DNA of 64,000 bases, taken from Patescibacteria group bacterium (lineage in GTDB: Bacteria > Patescibacteriota > Patescibacteriia > Magasanikbacterales > GWA2-37-8). The notes beneath the pieces are model-generated. The model was not told the DNA's origin. It did not search any database and saw nothing but the letters and a program-made list of their open reading frames with translations. A program made the translations under genes and the position numbers. The DNA lies in the NCBI GenBank assembly GCA_004321885.1, contig SCQK01000004.1:1-64000 (forward strand), written 5' to 3'. Shown here one piece after another: positions 1 through 10,902 of the stretch. The stretch's first letter is position 1, and each line of letters begins with the position of its first letter.

Positions 1-528
1 GTGCTTGGTCGGAAAGATACTGAAACAGTATTTCCTGGTATATGGATCTACAGCGGAAAACTGGTATTTTCTCCGGTTGTCCTCGTAAACGTATTTCACA
101 TCCATCTGCACGCCTTCGCCGGGATTTTCAATGATTAAGTGGTTTTTGAGCGGTTCGTACCATGACAGCTTCCTCTGGGGTTTCCTTATCAATTTCTTTC
201 GTTTGTAAAAACGATAGATCAGGGTAGTGGAAATATCCACATTCAATACCTGTTTCACCCGCATTTTCATCTTGGCTGGCCCATAATTGGTTTTCCATTT
301 TTCATCTGTAATGAATTTTTTCACCTCAAATGTCAATTTGGTGTTCGGCTGGTTCTTGGGCGACCGGTACCAGCGATATGATTCAAAATCTCTTTGTCGC
401 CACTTGTAAAAACACTTGCGGGAGATGCCAAAAATGGCACAGACCTCTTTGACACTTTTTCCACAACGATCGACCTGATAATACCATCTATTTCGTTCCC
501 GACGACCAGCCGCCATTGGATAGGCCAT
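1..528 (-). CDS. IS-family DDE transposase (N-terminal HTH plus start of integrase-core domain); gene continues beyond position 1
   Basis: Uninterrupted minus-strand frame from ATG near 528 to the window edge: MAYPMAAGRRERNRWYYQVDRCGKSVKEVCAIFGISRKCFYKWRQR...PGEGVQMDVKYVYEDNRRKYQFSAVDPYTRKY. This is an HTH followed by the typical start of an rve/DDE domain. The listed ORF 333..587 is a different, wrong frame. Confidence 0.55.
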   Translation of the reverse strand, partial: MAYPMAAGRRERNRWYYQVDRCGKSVKEVCAIFGISRKCFYKWRQRDFESYRWYRSPKNQPNTKLTFEVKKFITDEKWKTNYGPAKMKMRVKQVLNVDISTTLIYRFYKRKKLIRKPQRKLSWYEPLKNHLIIENPGEGVQMDVKYVYEDNRRKYQFSAVDPYTRKYCFSIFPTKH

Positions 529-653
529 ATGGTTAAGCGATTATTACTGTTCACACAGTGAACAGGTGTAACCCTTGATACTACCATATGTTACCCTATG
601 GTGTTAACTGTACAAAAACTTGACAAAAACGACAAATATGATATAGTGAATTC

Positions 654-750
654 AGAATTACTTGGCGAAGGCCCGCCGTATGGCGGAGATTGGCCTCGGC
701 GCGAGCCGGGGATAGCCAAGCTTCATAGAACCCCGCGAAACGGGGTTTTT
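654..750 (+). ncRNA. candidate small structured RNA (sRNA-1), convergent with DUF3800 paralog 1
   Basis: Promoter TTGACA (620-625) N16 TATAGT (642-647). Nested hairpins include cggc-GCGA-gccg. Intrinsic terminator ccccgcgaaacgggg+T5 (731-750) whose T-tract overlaps the stop codon of 749..1324. Homologous to 10036..10146 and 61234..61334. Confidence 0.5.
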
Positions 751-1324
751 ATGATTTCATTTCGCCGGATTCGCGCAGATAGTTTTCCTTTTTTGCTCTC
801 GCCATAATTTCCTTCGCGTCGGCTCGCCCCAAAAGCGCGCTTCGCGCGCAACCGGCCCACATATCCGCGAGCCGAATCGCGGGTTCGCTTTCGTCGCGTC
901 TCCCTTTTATCGCCCGCAACGAAACTCCGCTGGCCCGCAGCGCGTTCGTGAGTTCTCTCGCCTTTTTCTTGTCAATGCCGTCTATATAAACACGGGCCTG
1001 ATACGGACTTATCGCCACCTCTTTTATCGCTTTTTCAAGGAGCTTAATAACCGGGAAGAAATATGGAATGGGCTTCCGGTAGCGTGCTATATACACATCA
1101 CCAGCCGCCACTTCCCGAGCCAGCACGAGCTTTAGATATGCTATTCTTCTATCACGGCGCGTCTTATGCCATTTTAACTTGTTTGTCTTTACCTCTTTTT
1201 CAATGTTATTAAGCTGTTCTTTTAACACTCCCTGTTCCTCCGCGCTCACCACCGCCACTACGACGAATATCTCTGACTTCGTATCCTGGCCAGATTCATC
1301 CACATAACAATAGAGTTTTTCCAT
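749..1324 (-). CDS. DUF3800-like protein (paralog 1 of 3)
   Basis: 191 aa. N-terminal YCYVDESGQD and C-terminal RDESEPAIRLADMWAG motifs are shared with 10158..10718 and 61336..61878. Matches my recollection of the Pfam DUF3800 (PF12686) signature. Confidence 0.6.
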   Translation of the reverse strand: MEKLYCYVDESGQDTKSEIFVVVAVVSAEEQGVLKEQLNNIEKEVKTNKLKWHKTRRDRRIAYLKLVLAREVAAGDVYIARYRKPIPYFFPVIKLLEKAIKEVAISPYQARVYIDGIDKKKARELTNALRASGVSLRAIKGRRDESEPAIRLADMWAGCARSALLGRADAKEIMARAKKENYLRESGEMKS

Positions 1325-1467
1325 AATTAATGGTTCAGAAATATGTGTATTTTTTGCACATTGCTTTTTTTATAAATTTTTGATATATAACGAGCTAACC
1401 ACTGTGGACAATTTTTCTACTAGGTATTGACATTAAATGGACTATCTGATAATATAAACTTAGAAAA

Positions 1468-1515
1468 AGGCTTTCGGCCGTGGTTTCTATACCACACTTA
1501 GCGGAAAGTCCTTTT
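1468..1515. repeat. A-tract/hairpin/T-tract element (bidirectional-terminator-like); second copy 61005..61060
   Basis: aaaaaggctttcggccgtggtttctataccacacttagcggaaagtcctttttt vs gaaaaaggcttttggcaaggggtttataaaccacaacgtcgaaagtcctttttt. Confidence 0.45.
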
Positions 1516-1689
1516 TTGTTTTAATTTATCCTACCATCCCACGGAAAGACAGAATTAAAGTATGCCGAACGTAAATAGGTGCGCCTCTTTGATTTCCGTT
1601 TGATTTGAGTGTAAAGACCGAAAGCCCTGTCGTGTACTTCGCGGAAGTCGGTACCGGGGAATTTTTTTGTTTTCGTCTTGTATACCTGC

Positions 1690-1810
1690 ATAATTCATAC
1701 TTCGCTGGCTCCATACTCTTGCCCGCAGGCAAGGTGTGGAGCCATAGTGCTGTCAAACATTCGGGCTCCACAGCCCCGACTGAGTCGGGGACTATGGAGC
1801 CAGCGATATT
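1690..1810. repeat. family-A palindromic element (MITE/REP-like)
   Basis: 12-bp terminal inverted repeats GCTGGCTCCATA / TATGGAGCCAGC. Internal ggctcca/tggagcc copies and nested hairpins cttgcc-cgca-ggcaag and ccccgac-tRag-tcgggg. Other copies: 4205..4320, 7672..7797, 26305..26400, 36365..36545 (tandem pair), partial 41585..41668. Confidence 0.75.
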
Positions 1811-9989: not shown

Positions 9990-10035
9990 ATCACGTAATT
10001 TGACAAAATCAGTTACTCATGTTATTCTATCTTTA

Positions 10036-10146
10036 GAAAACAACAGCTGAATACTTCCCTTCCGCAGTCATGTCTGCGGGGCGAAAGCTTGGAAGGTGTC
10101 CGCGAGGAATAGGCTGATCCCCCTTAAACGGGGGTTTTTGTTTTTT
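10036..10146 (+). ncRNA. candidate small structured RNA (sRNA-2), convergent with DUF3800 paralog 2
   Basis: TTGACA 10000-10005 N17 TATTCT 10023-10028. Hairpin ccgcag-tcatgt-ctgcgg; GGCGAAAG; tcc-GCGA-gga hairpin; GAATAGGC. Terminator ccccc-ttaaac-ggggg + T-tract ending ~12 nt before the DUF3800 stop. Confidence 0.5.
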
Positions 10147-10157
10147 ACACATTTTTA

Positions 10158-10718
10158 TTAAATTTGTTTCAAAATTCCTTTCACGCAAAATTCTTTATAT
10201 AAATCCGGGAATGGTTCTTCTTCCTCCGTTTTGTCCCTCATAAAACCGGCAATGGCATCCGCCAAACGAACAAAAACATCGCTTTCATCTCTGGCGCCTC
10301 TCACTTTCCGAACTTTTATTCTTAACTTTCGCAAACCGGCCGCGAATCTTCCTCTTTCTTCTCTTTTTAATCCATCCACCAAAACCGTCGCCGTGTACTC
10401 TTTTTCCGCCCTTTGAGAAATTGCTTTAGCCGTAGATAATATCGTCAAATCCACATACGCCTTTGAATCTTCATATTTTGAAAAGAACGCGCTATTTCTC
10501 AATAATCCGCTTCCCAAAATCAGCCGTAAGTACGAAATTCTGCTTCTTCTTCTCGCTTTTGACCATTTGTGGACTCCCTTTCCGCTCTCTTTTTCAATAT
10601 TTTTTAACTTTTCTTTTATCGCGTCACGCTCTTTTTCCAAAATTATCACGGAAACCAGAAATAATTTTCCTTCGGTATCTTGCCCTGTTTCATCCACATA
10701 ACAATAATACTTTTGCAT
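10158..10718 (-). CDS. DUF3800-like protein (paralog 2)
   Basis: MQKYYCYVDETGQD ... RDESDVFVRLADAIAG. The listed ORF extends to 10814, but the extra 96 nt belong to the duplicated LamG-3 5' segment. Confidence 0.6.
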   Translation of the reverse strand: MQKYYCYVDETGQDTEGKLFLVSVIILEKERDAIKEKLKNIEKESGKGVHKWSKARRRSRISYLRLILGSGLLRNSAFFSKYEDSKAYVDLTILSTAKAISQRAEKEYTATVLVDGLKREERGRFAAGLRKLRIKVRKVRGARDESDVFVRLADAIAGFMRDKTEEEEPFPDLYKEFCVKGILKQI

Positions 10719-10757
10719 ATCAGGACTATACCACCGAATTGCGTGAATGCCAAAACA

Positions 10758-10856
10758 GCGCGCCCCAGAGAGCGACGCAAAAAACCGACAGCATTGTGGC
10801 TCCACGCACAGCATGGAGCCAGCGATTTTTGGAAGGTTTGCGAGACATGCAATCGC
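10758..10856. repeat. duplicate of the LamG-3 promoter-proximal/5' coding segment (9893..9990)
   Basis: Essentially identical ~98 bp including the ATG and first 31 codons (MSRKPSKNRWLHAVRGATMLSVFCVALWGAL). After that the frame ends after 40 codons. Confidence 0.8.
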
Positions 10857-10902
10857 AGTTACTATGTATTTAATACACTTCTTGTTTTTATTCGTTACAC
10901 CC

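What the first reader, a model, noticed from the sequence alone, without database searches (positions are those of the whole stretch)
1..10900. Accessory island: IS fragment, three LamG-lectin surface proteins, Bro-N gene, tRNA cassettes, DUF3800/sRNA modules
The three LamG genes share long near-identical stretches within and between genes, for example 2321..2540 ~ 5821..6060 ~ 6472..6715. Those repeats are substrates for gene conversion and domain shuffling of secreted lectin-like proteins. With phage-type (Bro-N) and IS genes, embedded tRNAs and palindromic elements at every junction, this looks like a recombination hotspot generating surface-protein diversity.
Basis: partly seen in the sequence, partly recalled or inferred. 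Interest (0 to 1): 0.5.

Follow-up and report, generated by a model that had tools for sequence, protein, structure and literature searches.

The report
Recombining LamG adhesin-like gene array
A tiny symbiotic-type (Patescibacteria) bacterium carries three tandem, recently recombined copies of a secreted three-domain lectin-like protein, mixed with tRNA genes, candidate defence genes and a genome-wide palindromic repeat. This is an ordinary, already familiar kind of variable surface-protein locus, not a new mechanism.

Summary
Window 1-10900 contains three minus-strand genes, each a signal peptide plus 3 Laminin_G_3 domains. It also holds a Bro-N gene, two DUF3800 genes, two tRNA-Arg genes, an IS481-type transposase gene cut by the window edge, and palindromic elements.

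The quoted repeats align at 88% mean column identity, with exact matches up to 67 nt. "Near-identical" overstates this: whole domains are only 33-65% identical in protein.

Conservation sits at the domain ends and exceeds protein constraint. Identical residues use the same codon 65% of the time at the ends, 45% in the centres, and 39% by expectation. One segment has a significant mosaic breakpoint (p<=0.0005). Collapsed LamG starts and ends, a 3.46-kb segmental duplication carrying the tRNA, and a 96-nt 99% duplication record past unequal recombination.

My reading is a lineage-specific paralogous adhesin-like array that evolves by duplication, deletion and gene conversion.

Nothing indicates a programmed diversity generator: no recombinase, no silent cassettes, no DGR signature. 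No population data could be found.

The palindromes are a genome-wide REP-like family, not island junction sites. The "Bro-N gene" matches defence candidate PDC-S13. Multi-LamG arrays are common in CPR and DPANN genomes. Interest is modest.

The parts
1..528 (-). N-terminal 176 codons of an IS481-type transposase gene; the ORF continues past the left edge of the window
   Evidence: The minus strand reads as one open frame from the ATG at 528 to position 1. It matches Pfam HTH_28/HTH_23 and NCBIfam transpos_IS481 at E 7.6e-19 over profile positions 2-168 of 284. Logan unitig L001 ends at 585, at the IS boundary.
620..756 (+). Promoter-like site, ~100-nt structured RNA and terminator, convergent with DUF3800-1 (candidate DUF3800-associated RNA 'A')
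   Evidence: This is the best promoter match in the region (11/12, with TG) and has a terminator at 727-749. The fold is -47.6 kcal/mol, z -4.2, a closing stem enclosing two hairpins. No Rfam match.
749..1324 (-). DUF3800 protein 1 (191 aa)
   Evidence: Pfam PF12686 E 5.8e-9. Weak PADLOC DUF3800_VII match. The exact protein is on Logan unitig L001.
1427..1525 (+). Promoter-like site followed by a short hairpin/terminator RNA of unknown role
   Evidence: Promoter match 10/12 with TG. Fold z -4.1.
1702..1806 (.). Palindromic element PE1, 4 nt after the LamG1 stop codon
   Evidence: A 14-17-bp outer stem encloses 3 hairpins; -67 kcal/mol, z -8.8. It is 98% identical to PE3.
1811..3889 (-). LamG1: signal peptide plus 3 Laminin_G_3 domains (692 aa)
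   Evidence: Pfam PF13385 E 6e-75, 3 stretches. 100% identical to NCBI 'LamG domain-containing protein [Patescibacteria group bacterium]'. The N-terminus reads MTKKFYILTIVFLAFLGAVFFASSSAHA|AAP.
3917..4030 (+). Promoter-like site, hairpin RNA and terminator upstream of tRNA-Arg; its paralogue lies at 7401-7488
   Evidence: Promoter 10/12 with TG and terminator at 4000-4020. Fold z -5.5, and -5.95 for the paralogue. The two are homologous in alignment A2.
4058..4168 (+). tRNA-Arg(GCG) with encoded CCA and its own terminator, antisense to the LamG genes
   Evidence: ARAGORN. Rfam tRNA 65.4 bits. Terminator at 4131-4168.
4183..4227 (-). Collapsed LamG junction: a LamG 3' end remnant (..AAKAMYVK-TGA), 1 nt, then ATGACCAAAAAAT (MTKKF)
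   Evidence: The 23-nt junction motif occurs 4 times, only in the island, against 0 expected.
4228..4316 (.). Palindromic element PE2, a diverged copy that lacks one hairpin
   Evidence: (z -6.8).
4317..4356 (-). Collapsed LamG gene: the LamG1-type start (ATGACCAAAAAATTCTACA) fused to a LamG1-type last few codons
   Evidence: Repeat family D11/D14 (1788-1828 ~ 4298-4338, 76%) is.
4358..5227 (-). Bro-N domain protein, full-length match to PADLOC defence candidate PDC-S13 and phrog_15286; the likely start is MSKKF at 5212
   Evidence: Pfam Bro-N E 2.9e-9. PADLOC PDC-S13 E 2.1e-112 over residues 19-286. phrog_15286 E 9e-85. Relatives at 47-66% identity in phage/viral contigs.
5221..5304 (.). 84-nt near-perfect hairpin between the LamG2 stop and the Bro-N start
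   Evidence: Fold -42.3 kcal/mol, z -8.3. No second copy in the window.
5309..7441 (-). LamG2: 3 Laminin_G_3 domains. The ORF stays open up to 7651, but the ancestral ATG was lost in a 28-nt deletion. NCBI annotates 710 aa, which implies a start at 7441.
   Evidence: Pfam E 5.7e-88. Protein alignment shows a ~93-aa extension. DNA alignment A2, columns 90-117, shows the deletion. P0002 is 710 aa.
7514..7619 (+). tRNA-Arg(CCG) plus terminator, a paralogue of the 4058 cassette, lying inside the long form of the LamG2 ORF on the opposite strand
   Evidence: Repeat D5, 4058-4243 ~ 7514-7699, is 91% identical at spacing 3456. Terminator at 7592-7619.
7639..7683 (-). Second collapsed LamG junction (..AAKVMYVK-TGA, 1 nt, ATGACCAAAAAAT)
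   Evidence: Forms a 22/27-nt direct repeat with the true LamG3 end on the other side of PE3.
7684..7788 (.). Palindromic element PE3, 2 nt after the LamG3 stop codon
   Evidence: Shares an 83-nt exact match with PE1.
7791..9989 (-). LamG3: a different signal peptide (MSRKPSKNRWLHAVRGATMLS...) containing half a PE, plus 3 Laminin_G_3 domains (732 aa)
   Evidence: Pfam E 6.4e-69. Half-PE at 9928-9966. P0003.
10000..10142 (+). Promoter-like site, ~110-nt RNA and terminator, convergent with DUF3800-2 (candidate DUF3800-associated RNA 'D')
   Evidence: Promoter 10/12 with TG and terminator at 10119-10134. The fold is not exceptional, z -0.8. No Rfam match.
10158..10718 (-). DUF3800 protein 2 (probable start at 10718, 186 aa), with a -35/-10 match directly upstream
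   Evidence: Pfam PF12686 E 1.4e-5, starting at residue 37 of the long ORF. Minus-strand promoter match at 10753-10725. 38% identical to DUF3800-1.
10753..10848 (-). 99% copy of the first 96 nt of LamG3 (start codon plus signal peptide). Together with 9894-9989 it brackets the DUF3800-2/RNA module.
   Evidence: Repeat D9/D13, with a 92-nt exact match. Translation gives a 40-aa remnant ORF. Logan unitig L086 ends 30 nt inside it.

Best explanation
The region is a lineage-specific tandem array of three paralogous secreted proteins in a Patescibacteria (Magasanikbacteria-like) chromosome. Each protein is a signal peptide plus three Laminin_G_3 / concanavalin-A-like domains and has no obvious anchor.

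Shown:
- The array grew by segmental duplication of a ~3.46-kb unit. That unit also carries, on the opposite strand, a self-contained tRNA-Arg transcription unit.
- The array has since been reshaped by unequal recombination and deletion. This left collapsed gene starts and ends, removed the original LamG2 start codon, and produced a 96-nt duplication around a DUF3800 module.
- Short-tract exchange (gene conversion) has occurred between domain boundaries, both within and between genes.
- Each domain therefore has conserved, partly homogenised N- and C-terminal framework segments and a highly diverged centre.

Inferred:
- The proteins are adhesin- or lectin-like surface or secreted factors, as assumed for LamG proteins of episymbiotic CPR/DPANN organisms.
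- The diverged centres give different binding specificities.
- Exchange uses ordinary homologous recombination on the 50-67-nt identical tracts, not a dedicated machine.

The neighbours are typical variable-region cargo: Bro-N/PDC-S13, two DUF3800 genes each with a convergent small RNA, and an IS481 transposase. The palindromic elements are a genome-wide REP-like family found in 3' UTRs. They may offer extra homology but are not specific to this locus.
For: Domain architecture and signal peptides.

The paralogues are closer to each other (43-50% identity) than to any of 5.8e9 database proteins (<=39%).

Repeat structure: period of 651-699 nt (one domain), exact matches up to 67 nt, none in shuffles.

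Ends versus centres: 70-76% versus 41% mean nt identity. Same-codon use at identical residues is 0.65 at the ends, 0.45 in the centres and 0.39 expected. Eight domain pairs are individually significant.

Nearest neighbour changes with segment. For example, the L1d1 N-segment is closest to L1d3 (90%) while its centre is closest to L3d1.

Mosaic breakpoint in 5821-6060: 11 of 11 informative sites agree with LamG1, then 33 of 40 agree with the other LamG2 junction. Max chi2 25.7, permutation p<=0.0005.

Segmental duplication and 28-nt deletion. Collapsed junction remnants. 96-nt 99% repeat.

Other multi-LamG arrays (Woesebacteria, Aenigmatarchaeota) conserve the same two motif regions, but at only 60-82% nt identity. 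Protein constraint alone therefore does not give the 80-93% seen here.

Literature treats LamG/concanavalin proteins of CPR/DPANN as attachment factors: PMC11310336.
Against: No population or strain data were available, so ongoing variation is unproven.

Excess synonymous identity at the domain ends could partly reflect nucleotide-level selection or codon bias at conserved sites.

Surface location, secretion and sugar binding were not tested. There is no anchor motif, and no strong promoter match lies upstream of LamG1 or LamG3.

LamG2 may be impaired, because its original start codon is gone.

The order of the repeat units rests on a single MAG assembly. The only other contigs recovered, two Logan unitigs, are 100% identical, may derive from the same sample, and do not span the array.
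Confidence: 0.7

Rival explanations
1. Programmed diversity generator. The 23-nt junction motif and/or the palindromic elements are sites for a site-specific recombinase that excises, inverts or swaps LamG cassettes (shufflon-, integron- or antigenic-variation-like), giving high-frequency variation within a population.
For: Four direct copies of GTGAAATGATATGACCAAAAAAT bound every cassette in the island and occur nowhere else in 64 kb. 'Empty' cassettes exist. A 39-nt inverted repeat links PE2 with the LamG3 5' end and its copy. PEs sit at the cassette borders.
Against: No tyrosine or serine recombinase or integron integrase lies in or next to the region. The only mobility gene is an IS481 transposase. 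All three LamG genes are full length with their own signal peptides, so they are not silent cassettes. Inversion between the 39-nt repeats would not join an ORF to the LamG3 start (sequence inspection). PEs are spread over the whole window. The junction motif is simply a stop codon, one nucleotide and a start codon of abutting paralogues.
Confidence: 0.07
2. No recombination at all. The repeats are only the conserved framework motifs of the Laminin_G_3 domain, kept by purifying selection on the protein after old duplications.
For: The same two regions (W-x-F/M-D...SG-x-x-N-G at the start, F-x-G-x-I/L-D-D/E-V-R/K-I/V-Y-N-R-A-L at the end) are also the conserved parts in unrelated arrays from other phyla.
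Against: Those arrays reach only 60-82% nt identity, against 80-93% here with 50-67-nt exact runs. Same-codon use at identical residues is 0.65 at the ends versus 0.45 in the centres and 0.39 expected. There is a significant mosaic breakpoint. Nearest neighbours are incongruent between segments.
Confidence: 0.1
3. Remnant of a prophage or other integrated mobile element. On this view the LamG proteins are tail-fibre or virion proteins and the tRNAs, Bro-N and IS are phage or mobile-element cargo.
For: LamG1 hits PHROG virion structural and baseplate families, and the Bro-N protein hits phrog_15286. Bro-N relatives occur in viral contigs. CPR phages encode LamG proteins (PMC11310336). GC is lower and tetranucleotide use is an outlier. 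The island is absent beside gyrB in relatives.
Against: There is no capsid, terminase, portal, integrase or replication gene in 1-13 kb. There is no nucleotide match to 50,697 phage records. The island shares the PE family with core genes (uvrA, RNase J, a glycosyltransferase), which argues for long residence. The PHROG hits cover only the LamG domain. The proteins have classical signal peptides.
Confidence: 0.1
4. Assembly artefact. The repeat-rich array is a chimeric or collapsed join of several strains' LamG genes in a metagenome-assembled genome.
For: The source is a MAG contig of 86,683 bp. Independent Logan unitigs break exactly at the repeats. LamG2 has an odd 5' end.
Against: The exact repeats are at most 92 nt, shorter than normal reads. 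The two unitigs recovered are 100% identical to the window right up to the repeats. All three ORFs are intact and the duplicated units have diverged 7-9% in an orderly way.
Confidence: 0.05

Closest known systems
Multi-LamG / concanavalin-A-like (Pfam Laminin_G_3, PF13385) secreted proteins of CPR bacteria and DPANN archaea
   Same: Same domain family and same architecture: a signal peptide plus 3 (or 5) LamG domains, ~700 aa. More than 2,100 homologues at E<=1e-20, mostly Patescibacteria. Tandem arrays of such genes are common, with 10-18 domains in the Woesebacteria, Aenigmatarchaeota and Nanohalobium loci. They are regarded as attachment factors (PMC11310336).
   Different: No homologue outside this genome exceeds 39% identity. 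DNA-level similarity between paralogues is higher here (80-93% at the domain ends, against 60-82% in other arrays). Only this array has tRNA cassettes and collapsed copies interleaved.
Paralogous outer-surface adhesin families that exchange segments by gene conversion between full-length copies (e.g. Helicobacter pylori babA/babB/babC; my own knowledge, not tested here)
   Same: Several full-length, separately startable paralogues. Conserved 5'/3' or framework segments and diverged middle regions. Mosaic breakpoints. RecA-type exchange on short identical tracts is the presumed mechanism.
   Different: No phenotypic or population evidence of switching exists here. Exchange also occurs between domains within one gene. 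The organism and protein fold are unrelated.
Classical antigenic-variation cassette systems (Neisseria pilE/pilS, Borrelia vlsE, Mycoplasma MgPar) and diversity-generating retroelements
   Same: Repeated partial homology among surface-protein coding sequences.
   Different: There is no single expression site with silent truncated cassettes. There is no reverse transcriptase and no template/variable repeat pair, and substitutions between repeats are of all types, not adenine-specific. Membership tests were not met.
REP/BIME-type extragenic palindromes and Rickettsia palindromic elements (RPE), as analogues for the PE family
   Same: An 87-112-nt element with a 14-bp terminal inverted repeat and internal hairpins, dispersed at about 8 copies per 64 kb. 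All 6 intergenic copies lie just 3' of a gene in the same orientation. One copy is in frame inside a glycosyltransferase ORF and half a copy lies inside the LamG3 signal peptide, as with RPEs.
   Different: No sequence relation to any Rfam family. No RAYT-type transposase was seen in the window. No hits in the metagenome or viral collections.
DUF3800-associated RNA motifs (Weinberg et al. 2017, PMC5737381; Rfam DUF3800-II RF02961)
   Same: A bona fide DUF3800-II RNA (67 bits) sits convergent to a third DUF3800 gene at 61.3 kb. The two island DUF3800 genes each have a promoter, a ~100-nt RNA and a terminator in the same convergent position. By eye the RNAs share a closing stem, a last hairpin with a GCGA loop and a following (A/C)UA.
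   Different: Neither island RNA matches any Rfam model, even at E<=10. Automatic alignment finds no common structure. One of them does not fold better than shuffles (z -0.8).

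Membership tests
Laminin_G_3 / concanavalin A-like lectin-glucanase superfamily (PF13385) | Profile match above the curated threshold for each domain | tested here: met
   231-293 bits against a cutoff of 27.6, with 3 stretches per protein. tblastn finds nine domains, all within 1820-9836.
Laminin_G_3 / concanavalin A-like lectin-glucanase superfamily (PF13385) | Beta-sandwich fold with carbohydrate or Ca2+ binding | not tested
   No structure was predicted. The nearest solved sequence relatives are an S-layer-domain protein (4qvs, E 5e-9) and tetanus toxin Hc-N. 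Binding cannot be tested in silico.
Secreted / cell-surface protein | N-terminal signal peptide (charged n-region, hydrophobic core, A-x-A cleavage site) | tested here: inconclusive
   By inspection only: MTKKFYILTIVFLAFLGAVFFASSSAHA|AAP, with equivalents in all three proteins. No predictor was available. No anchor motif is visible at the C-terminus.
Antigenic-variation cassette locus (expression site plus silent cassettes) | One expressed copy and several promoterless, truncated donor cassettes | tested here: not met
   All three copies are full-length ORFs with signal peptides. The only truncated pieces are 13-45-nt start/end remnants.
Site-specific inversion / shufflon / integron-like system | A dedicated recombinase gene next to repeated core sites | tested here: not met
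   There is no recombinase or integrase domain in any ORF of 1-13.3 kb. Only an IS481-type transposase is present. The repeated 23-nt motif is in direct orientation.
Diversity-generating retroelement | Reverse transcriptase plus a template/variable repeat pair differing at adenines | tested here: not met
   No RT domain was found. Mismatches between the best repeat pairs are spread over all 12 substitution types.
Genomic (accessory) island | Deviant composition | tested here: met
   GC is 0.459 against 0.501. The 5-kb windows covering 1-10,000 are the strongest tetranucleotide outliers (z 1.8-2.2). Internal repeats inflate this measure.
Genomic (accessory) island | Absent from the same site in related genomes | tested here: inconclusive
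   In two relatives (GyrB 80% identical) synteny right of gyrB is conserved. The left side holds other genes and no LamG, Bro-N, DUF3800 or PE. These relatives are distant, and no close relative exists in the collections.
Genomic (accessory) island | Integrase and flanking att direct repeats, with defined boundaries | tested here: not met
   No integrase was found. The left boundary lies outside the window. The tRNA genes are internal and duplicated, not at a border.
PADLOC defence candidate PDC-S13 | Full-length profile match | tested here: met
   E 2.1e-112, residues 19-286 on profile positions 4-274 of 286.
PADLOC defence candidate PDC-S13 | Anti-phage activity | not testable with these tools
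   No paper in the library mentions PDC-S13.
Rfam DUF3800-II RNA (RF02961) | Covariance-model score above the gathering threshold | tested here: not met
   Met only by 61251-61314 (67 bits, cutoff 43.2). The island RNAs at 648-756 and 10029-10142 give no DUF3800-motif hit at E<=10.
REP/MITE-like dispersed palindromic element (PE family) | Multiple dispersed copies with terminal inverted repeats and a conserved fold | tested here: met
   15 arm matches against 0.3 expected. Seven full copies align at 76% mean column identity, with compensatory variants of hairpin 1. Fold z ranges from -6.8 to -8.8.
REP/MITE-like dispersed palindromic element (PE family) | Cognate transposase (RAYT or other) or target-site duplications | tested here: inconclusive
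   No RAYT-like ORF was seen in the window. PE3 is flanked by a 22/27-nt direct repeat of the LamG 3' end, but PE2 is not.
IS481 family insertion sequence | Transposase with an N-terminal HTH and a DDE (rve) catalytic domain; terminal inverted repeats | tested here: inconclusive
   The HTH and profile positions 2-168 of 284 match (68 bits; the cutoff of 224 cannot be reached by a truncated sequence). The catalytic half lies outside the window.

The most novel reading that the evidence does not exclude
Two readings are not excluded.

1. The palindromic element is an active, RPE-like mobile element of a CPR bacterium. It can insert in frame into coding sequences: the glycosyltransferase at 41584-41673, and the LamG3 signal peptide. 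Together with the 23-nt stop-start junction motif, it would mediate cassette-wise gain, loss and exchange of LamG, tRNA, Bro-N/PDC-S13 and DUF3800-RNA modules. That would amount to a recombinase-independent or as yet unrecognised cassette system for surface and defence genes.

2. The two island RNAs are new members of the unexplained DUF3800-associated RNA class, travelling with their DUF3800 gene as a mobile two-part module.
Probability: 0.1. Interest if true: 0.6.

Novelty: new member of a known kind. Interest (0 to 1): 0.3.

Why it matters
Episymbiotic CPR bacteria depend on attaching to host cells, and LamG-type proteins are the usual suspects for that contact. This locus is a clean, sequence-level example of such genes diversifying: framework segments are kept and exchanged while the domain centres diverge. 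It shows that duplication, deletion and gene conversion operate even in a very small genome.

It does not reveal a new mechanism.

Three side observations may be useful leads for specialists, but none is established here:
- a REP/RPE-like element that also sits in frame inside genes;
- two unmatched RNAs next to DUF3800 genes;
- a tRNA-Arg pair that diverged in its anticodon after duplication.

Tried and rejected
Dead ends in finding related sequence:
- Exact-protein look-ups for LamG1 (twice), Bro-N (two possible starts) and DUF3800-2 (two possible starts) found nothing on record.
- Only two short Logan unitigs from SRR8426592 were recovered. Both are 100% identical to the window and end 30 nt inside repeats, so they give no variant information.
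The viral-contig scan for PE also returned 0.
- Megablast of the island against 50,697 phage records found no match.
- The genome-contig scan found only distant LamG relatives (<=32% identity).

Hypotheses rejected:
- DGR: no reverse transcriptase and no adenine bias.
- Invertible promoter or shufflon: the only inverted repeats are PE arms and hairpins.
- Prophage: no structural or integrase genes.
- Known RNA family for the small RNAs or PE: nothing in Rfam at E<=1 to 10.
- The 84-nt hairpin at 5221-5304 as a dispersed repeat: there is no second copy.
- Homology between the 659-aa neighbour and the 317-aa protein next to gyrB in relatives: none.

Analysis that failed:
- Automatic alignment and RNAalifold of the three DUF3800-adjacent RNAs gave no common structure. 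The resemblance I describe rests on inspection only.

Full report
**Context.** The 64-kb window is a bacterial chromosome segment of CPR/Patescibacteria type. It encodes:
- GyrB with an intein, QueA, UvrA, RNase J and FtsH;
- a T4SS-pilin-like protein and DUF4012;
- RNase P RNA and a DUF3800-II RNA.

LamG1 is 100% identical to an NCBI protein from a 'Patescibacteria group bacterium' MAG contig of 86,683 bp. The closest GyrB sequences (77-80% identity) are from Candidatus Magasanikbacteria and unnamed Patescibacteria. No close relative is available in any collection searched.

**Checking the observation.**
- Three minus-strand ORFs (1811-3889, 5309-7651, 7791-9989) each carry three Laminin_G_3 domains (Pfam E 6e-69 to 6e-88).
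- A tblastn search finds exactly nine LamG domains in the window, all in this region.
- A Bro-N protein (4358-5227) and DUF3800 proteins (749-1324, 10158-10814) are confirmed.
- tRNA-Arg(GCG) at 4058-4131 and tRNA-Arg(CCG) at 7514-7587 are confirmed.
- Repeat families have a period of 651-699 nt, which is one domain.
- There are 38 maximal exact matches of >=20 nt in 1-11000, up to 67 nt inside the LamG bodies. No 20-mer recurs in any of 20 shuffles.

**Four corrections to the observation.**
- Whole domains are only 33-65% identical in protein. High identity is confined to the first ~58 and last ~29 residues of each domain.
- The 'IS fragment' is the intact N-terminal part of an IS481-type transposase ORF that is cut by the window edge.
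- The long form of the LamG2 ORF reads antisense through a tRNA. A 28-nt deletion removed the ancestral ATG, and NCBI calls a 710-aa protein.
- The palindromic elements are not specific to the island.

**Anatomy.** Reading the minus strand, the order is:
- LamG3;
- PE3;
- a collapsed LamG junction;
- the antisense tRNA-Arg(CCG) unit;
- LamG2;
- an 84-nt hairpin;
- Bro-N;
- a collapsed LamG gene;
- PE2;
- another collapsed junction;
- the antisense tRNA-Arg(GCG) unit;
- LamG1;
- PE1.

The collapsed pieces are recognisable because abutting LamG genes share a stop-1 nt-start junction, GTGAAATGATATGACCAAAAAAT (..YVK* then MTKKF). This motif occurs four times, only here. Twice it is preceded by a ~27-nt remnant of a LamG 3' end, and once it is followed directly by the last codons of a LamG1-type gene.

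Alignment of 3780-4360 with 7260-7800 shows one duplicated unit. It runs from the LamG signal peptide (93% identical) through the following parts:
- a plus-strand promoter;
- a small hairpin RNA with terminator;
- the tRNA with its own terminator;
- the junction remnant and the PE.

Repeat spacing is 3456-3480 nt. The two tRNAs are 91% identical over 186 nt including flanks, but they differ in the anticodon.

At the right end, the first 96 nt of LamG3 (start codon and signal peptide) recur at 99% identity 859 nt upstream. The two copies bracket DUF3800-2 and its convergent RNA.

**Evidence for recombination rather than mere protein constraint.**
- The conserved ends are also the conserved parts of LamG arrays in unrelated organisms, but there only at 60-82% nucleotide identity. 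Here they reach 80-93%, with 50-67-nt exact runs.
- Among residues identical between two domains, the same codon is used in 65% of cases at the ends, 45% in the centres and 39% by expectation from the genes' own codon usage. Eight domain pairs are individually significant.
- Nearest neighbours change with the segment. The N-segment of LamG1 domain 1 is closest to LamG1 domain 3 (90%), while its centre is closest to domain 1 of LamG3.
- In 5821-6060, the first 11 informative sites all agree with LamG1 (2321-2384). Then 33 of the next 40 agree with the other LamG2 junction (6472-6715). Maximum chi-square is 25.7, permutation p<=0.0005. This is a classical mosaic breakpoint.

Taken with the collapsed copies, the deletion and the two duplications, the locus has clearly undergone repeated unequal recombination and short-tract conversion.

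**What could not be shown.** That needs population data, and none could be obtained.
- Both metagenome scans were empty.
- Exact-protein look-ups mostly failed.
- The two Logan unitigs recovered (window 585-1728 and 10819-13676) are identical to the window. They simply end 30 nt inside repeats, as a de Bruijn assembler would.

No dedicated machinery is present either.
- There is no recombinase or reverse transcriptase.
- There is no adenine-biased substitution pattern.
- There are no inverted repeats other than PE arms and hairpins.
- There are no silent cassettes.

I therefore favour a passive paralogue family evolving by birth and death plus gene conversion (confidence 0.7) over a programmed system (0.07).

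**The companions.**
- The Bro-N protein is a near full-length match to PADLOC defence candidate PDC-S13 (E 2e-112) and to phrog_15286. Relatives at 47-66% identity occur in phage or viral contigs. Its function is unknown, and no paper in the library mentions PDC-S13.
- The four best promoter matches in the region are all on the plus strand (620, 1427, 3917, 10000). All have an extended -10 TG, and each is followed by a short RNA with a terminator-like hairpin (three listed; the one after 1427 from the fold).
- Two of these RNAs are convergent with a DUF3800 gene. That is exactly the arrangement of the bona fide DUF3800-II RNA next to the third DUF3800 gene at 61.3 kb.
- Weinberg et al. 2017 described 11 unrelated RNA motifs associated with DUF3800 genes, of unknown function (PMC5737381).
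- The island RNAs match none of these motifs. By eye they share with DUF3800-II a closing stem, a last hairpin with a GCGA loop and a following (A/C)UA. Automatic alignment does not recover this, so it remains a lead.

**The palindromic elements.**
- PE is an 87-112-nt element with a 14-bp terminal inverted repeat and two or three internal hairpins. Fold z ranges from -6.8 to -8.8, and hairpin 1 has compensatory variants.
- Seven full copies lie in the window. The six intergenic ones sit directly 3' of a gene (LamG1, Bro-N, LamG3, uvrA, and RNase J twice) in the same orientation relative to that gene.
- One copy lies in frame inside a GT4 glycosyltransferase ORF, between its two Pfam domains.
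- Half a copy forms part of the LamG3 signal peptide. Both coding copies are in the opposite orientation.
- This resembles REP/BIME elements and, for the in-frame copies, Rickettsia RPEs.
- PE is therefore a genome-wide repeat that also happens to offer 83-nt identical tracts inside the island.

**Is it an accessory island?** The evidence is suggestive, not conclusive.
- GC is lower (0.459 versus 0.501) and tetranucleotide use is the window's strongest outlier. Internal repeats inflate that measure.
- In two relatives, synteny to the right of gyrB is conserved. The left side carries other genes and none of the island's proteins or PE. Those relatives are distant, with GyrB 80% identical.
- There is no integrase, and the left boundary lies outside the window.
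- A prophage origin is unlikely. No phage structural genes are present, there is no nucleotide match to phage records, and the island shares PE with core genes.

**Comparison with what is known, and verdict.** Secreted multi-LamG proteins, often in tandem arrays, are widespread in CPR and DPANN genomes. They are already discussed as attachment factors. Mosaic evolution of paralogous adhesin families by gene conversion is well known in other bacteria.

This locus is a new member of that known kind. It is unusually well marked by recombination scars and has no close homologue elsewhere (<=39% identity). Interest is modest (0.3).

The most novel reading not excluded is that PE and the junction motif mediate cassette-wise exchange, or that the DUF3800-RNA pairs are mobile modules carrying new RNA motifs (probability about 0.1).

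Noticed in passing
window 41584-41673 (inside ORF 41019-42212, + strand): A full palindromic element lies in frame inside a GT4 glycosyltransferase gene. It encodes 31 residues (TAGSIIPPTGVELNCKLAPQPAFGGIMEPAN) between the Glyco_transf_4 and Glycos_transf_1 domains. This resembles Rickettsia RPE insertions.
   Followed up: partly
window 26308-26394, 36360-36448, 36453-36541: Further PE copies lie directly 3' of uvrA and, as a tandem pair, 3' of RNase J. They have the same orientation relative to the upstream gene as the island copies. The family had no hit in Rfam, the metagenome contigs or the viral contigs.
   Followed up: partly
window 4058-4131 and 7514-7587: The two tRNA-Arg genes are duplicates (91% identical including flanks) that differ at anticodon position 34, GCG versus CCG. 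To my knowledge GCG is not the usual bacterial CGN-box anticodon, which is ACG. In both genes the 5' leader (GGTGGAC) can pair with the 3' end including the CCA.
   Followed up: no
window 7417-7438 vs 7510-7531 (and 3960-3980 vs 4058-4075): The small hairpin RNA upstream of each tRNA is complementary to the 5' acceptor/D-arm region of its own tRNA. The two units covary: CUACAGG pairs with CCUGUAG in one, CUACGGG with CCCGUAG in the other. The meaning is unknown.
   Followed up: no
window 61251-61314 (+) and 61336-61878 (-): A bona fide Rfam DUF3800-II RNA (67 bits) with a terminator is convergent with a third DUF3800 gene. The three DUF3800 paralogues are only 25-38% identical, and each has a different neighbouring RNA.
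   Followed up: partly
window 13587-17117: GyrB carries an intein (Intein_splicing, residues 511-936). Among the nearest relatives some have a GyrB intein (P0147, P0227, P0240) and most do not.
   Followed up: no
window 13469-13580, 22048-22152, 31152-31256, 31989-32093: A second dispersed intergenic repeat family is AT-rich and built of CAAT / TTGACATT-like units of ~105 nt. It occurs in direct and inverted copies, for example just upstream of gyrB.
   Followed up: no
window 9858-9890, 10116-10136, 11300-11345, 12691-12800: Short C-run/G-run palindromes (CCCCCTTAATAAGGGGG-like) recur. One lies inside the LamG3 coding sequence, one acts as a terminator, and a 57-nt tandem pair lies inside the 659-aa ORF 11346-13325.
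   Followed up: no
window 5221-5304: An 84-nt near-perfect hairpin (z -8.3) spans the gap between the LamG2 stop and the Bro-N start. It is unique in the window, and its only Rfam hit is a chance-level miRNA match.
   Followed up: partly
window 1530-1700: About 170 nt between the hairpin RNA at 1456-1525 and PE1 have no ORF or known RNA match, and end in a T-run after a GC-rich stem (~1620-1670). The stretch is unexplained.
   Followed up: no
L084 14845-19266 (Patescibacteria GCA_028705565.1): A relative carries five tandem Trypsin_2 paralogues inserted in the otherwise conserved queA-yceG neighbourhood. This is another example of a tandem secreted-protein array in this lineage.
   Followed up: no
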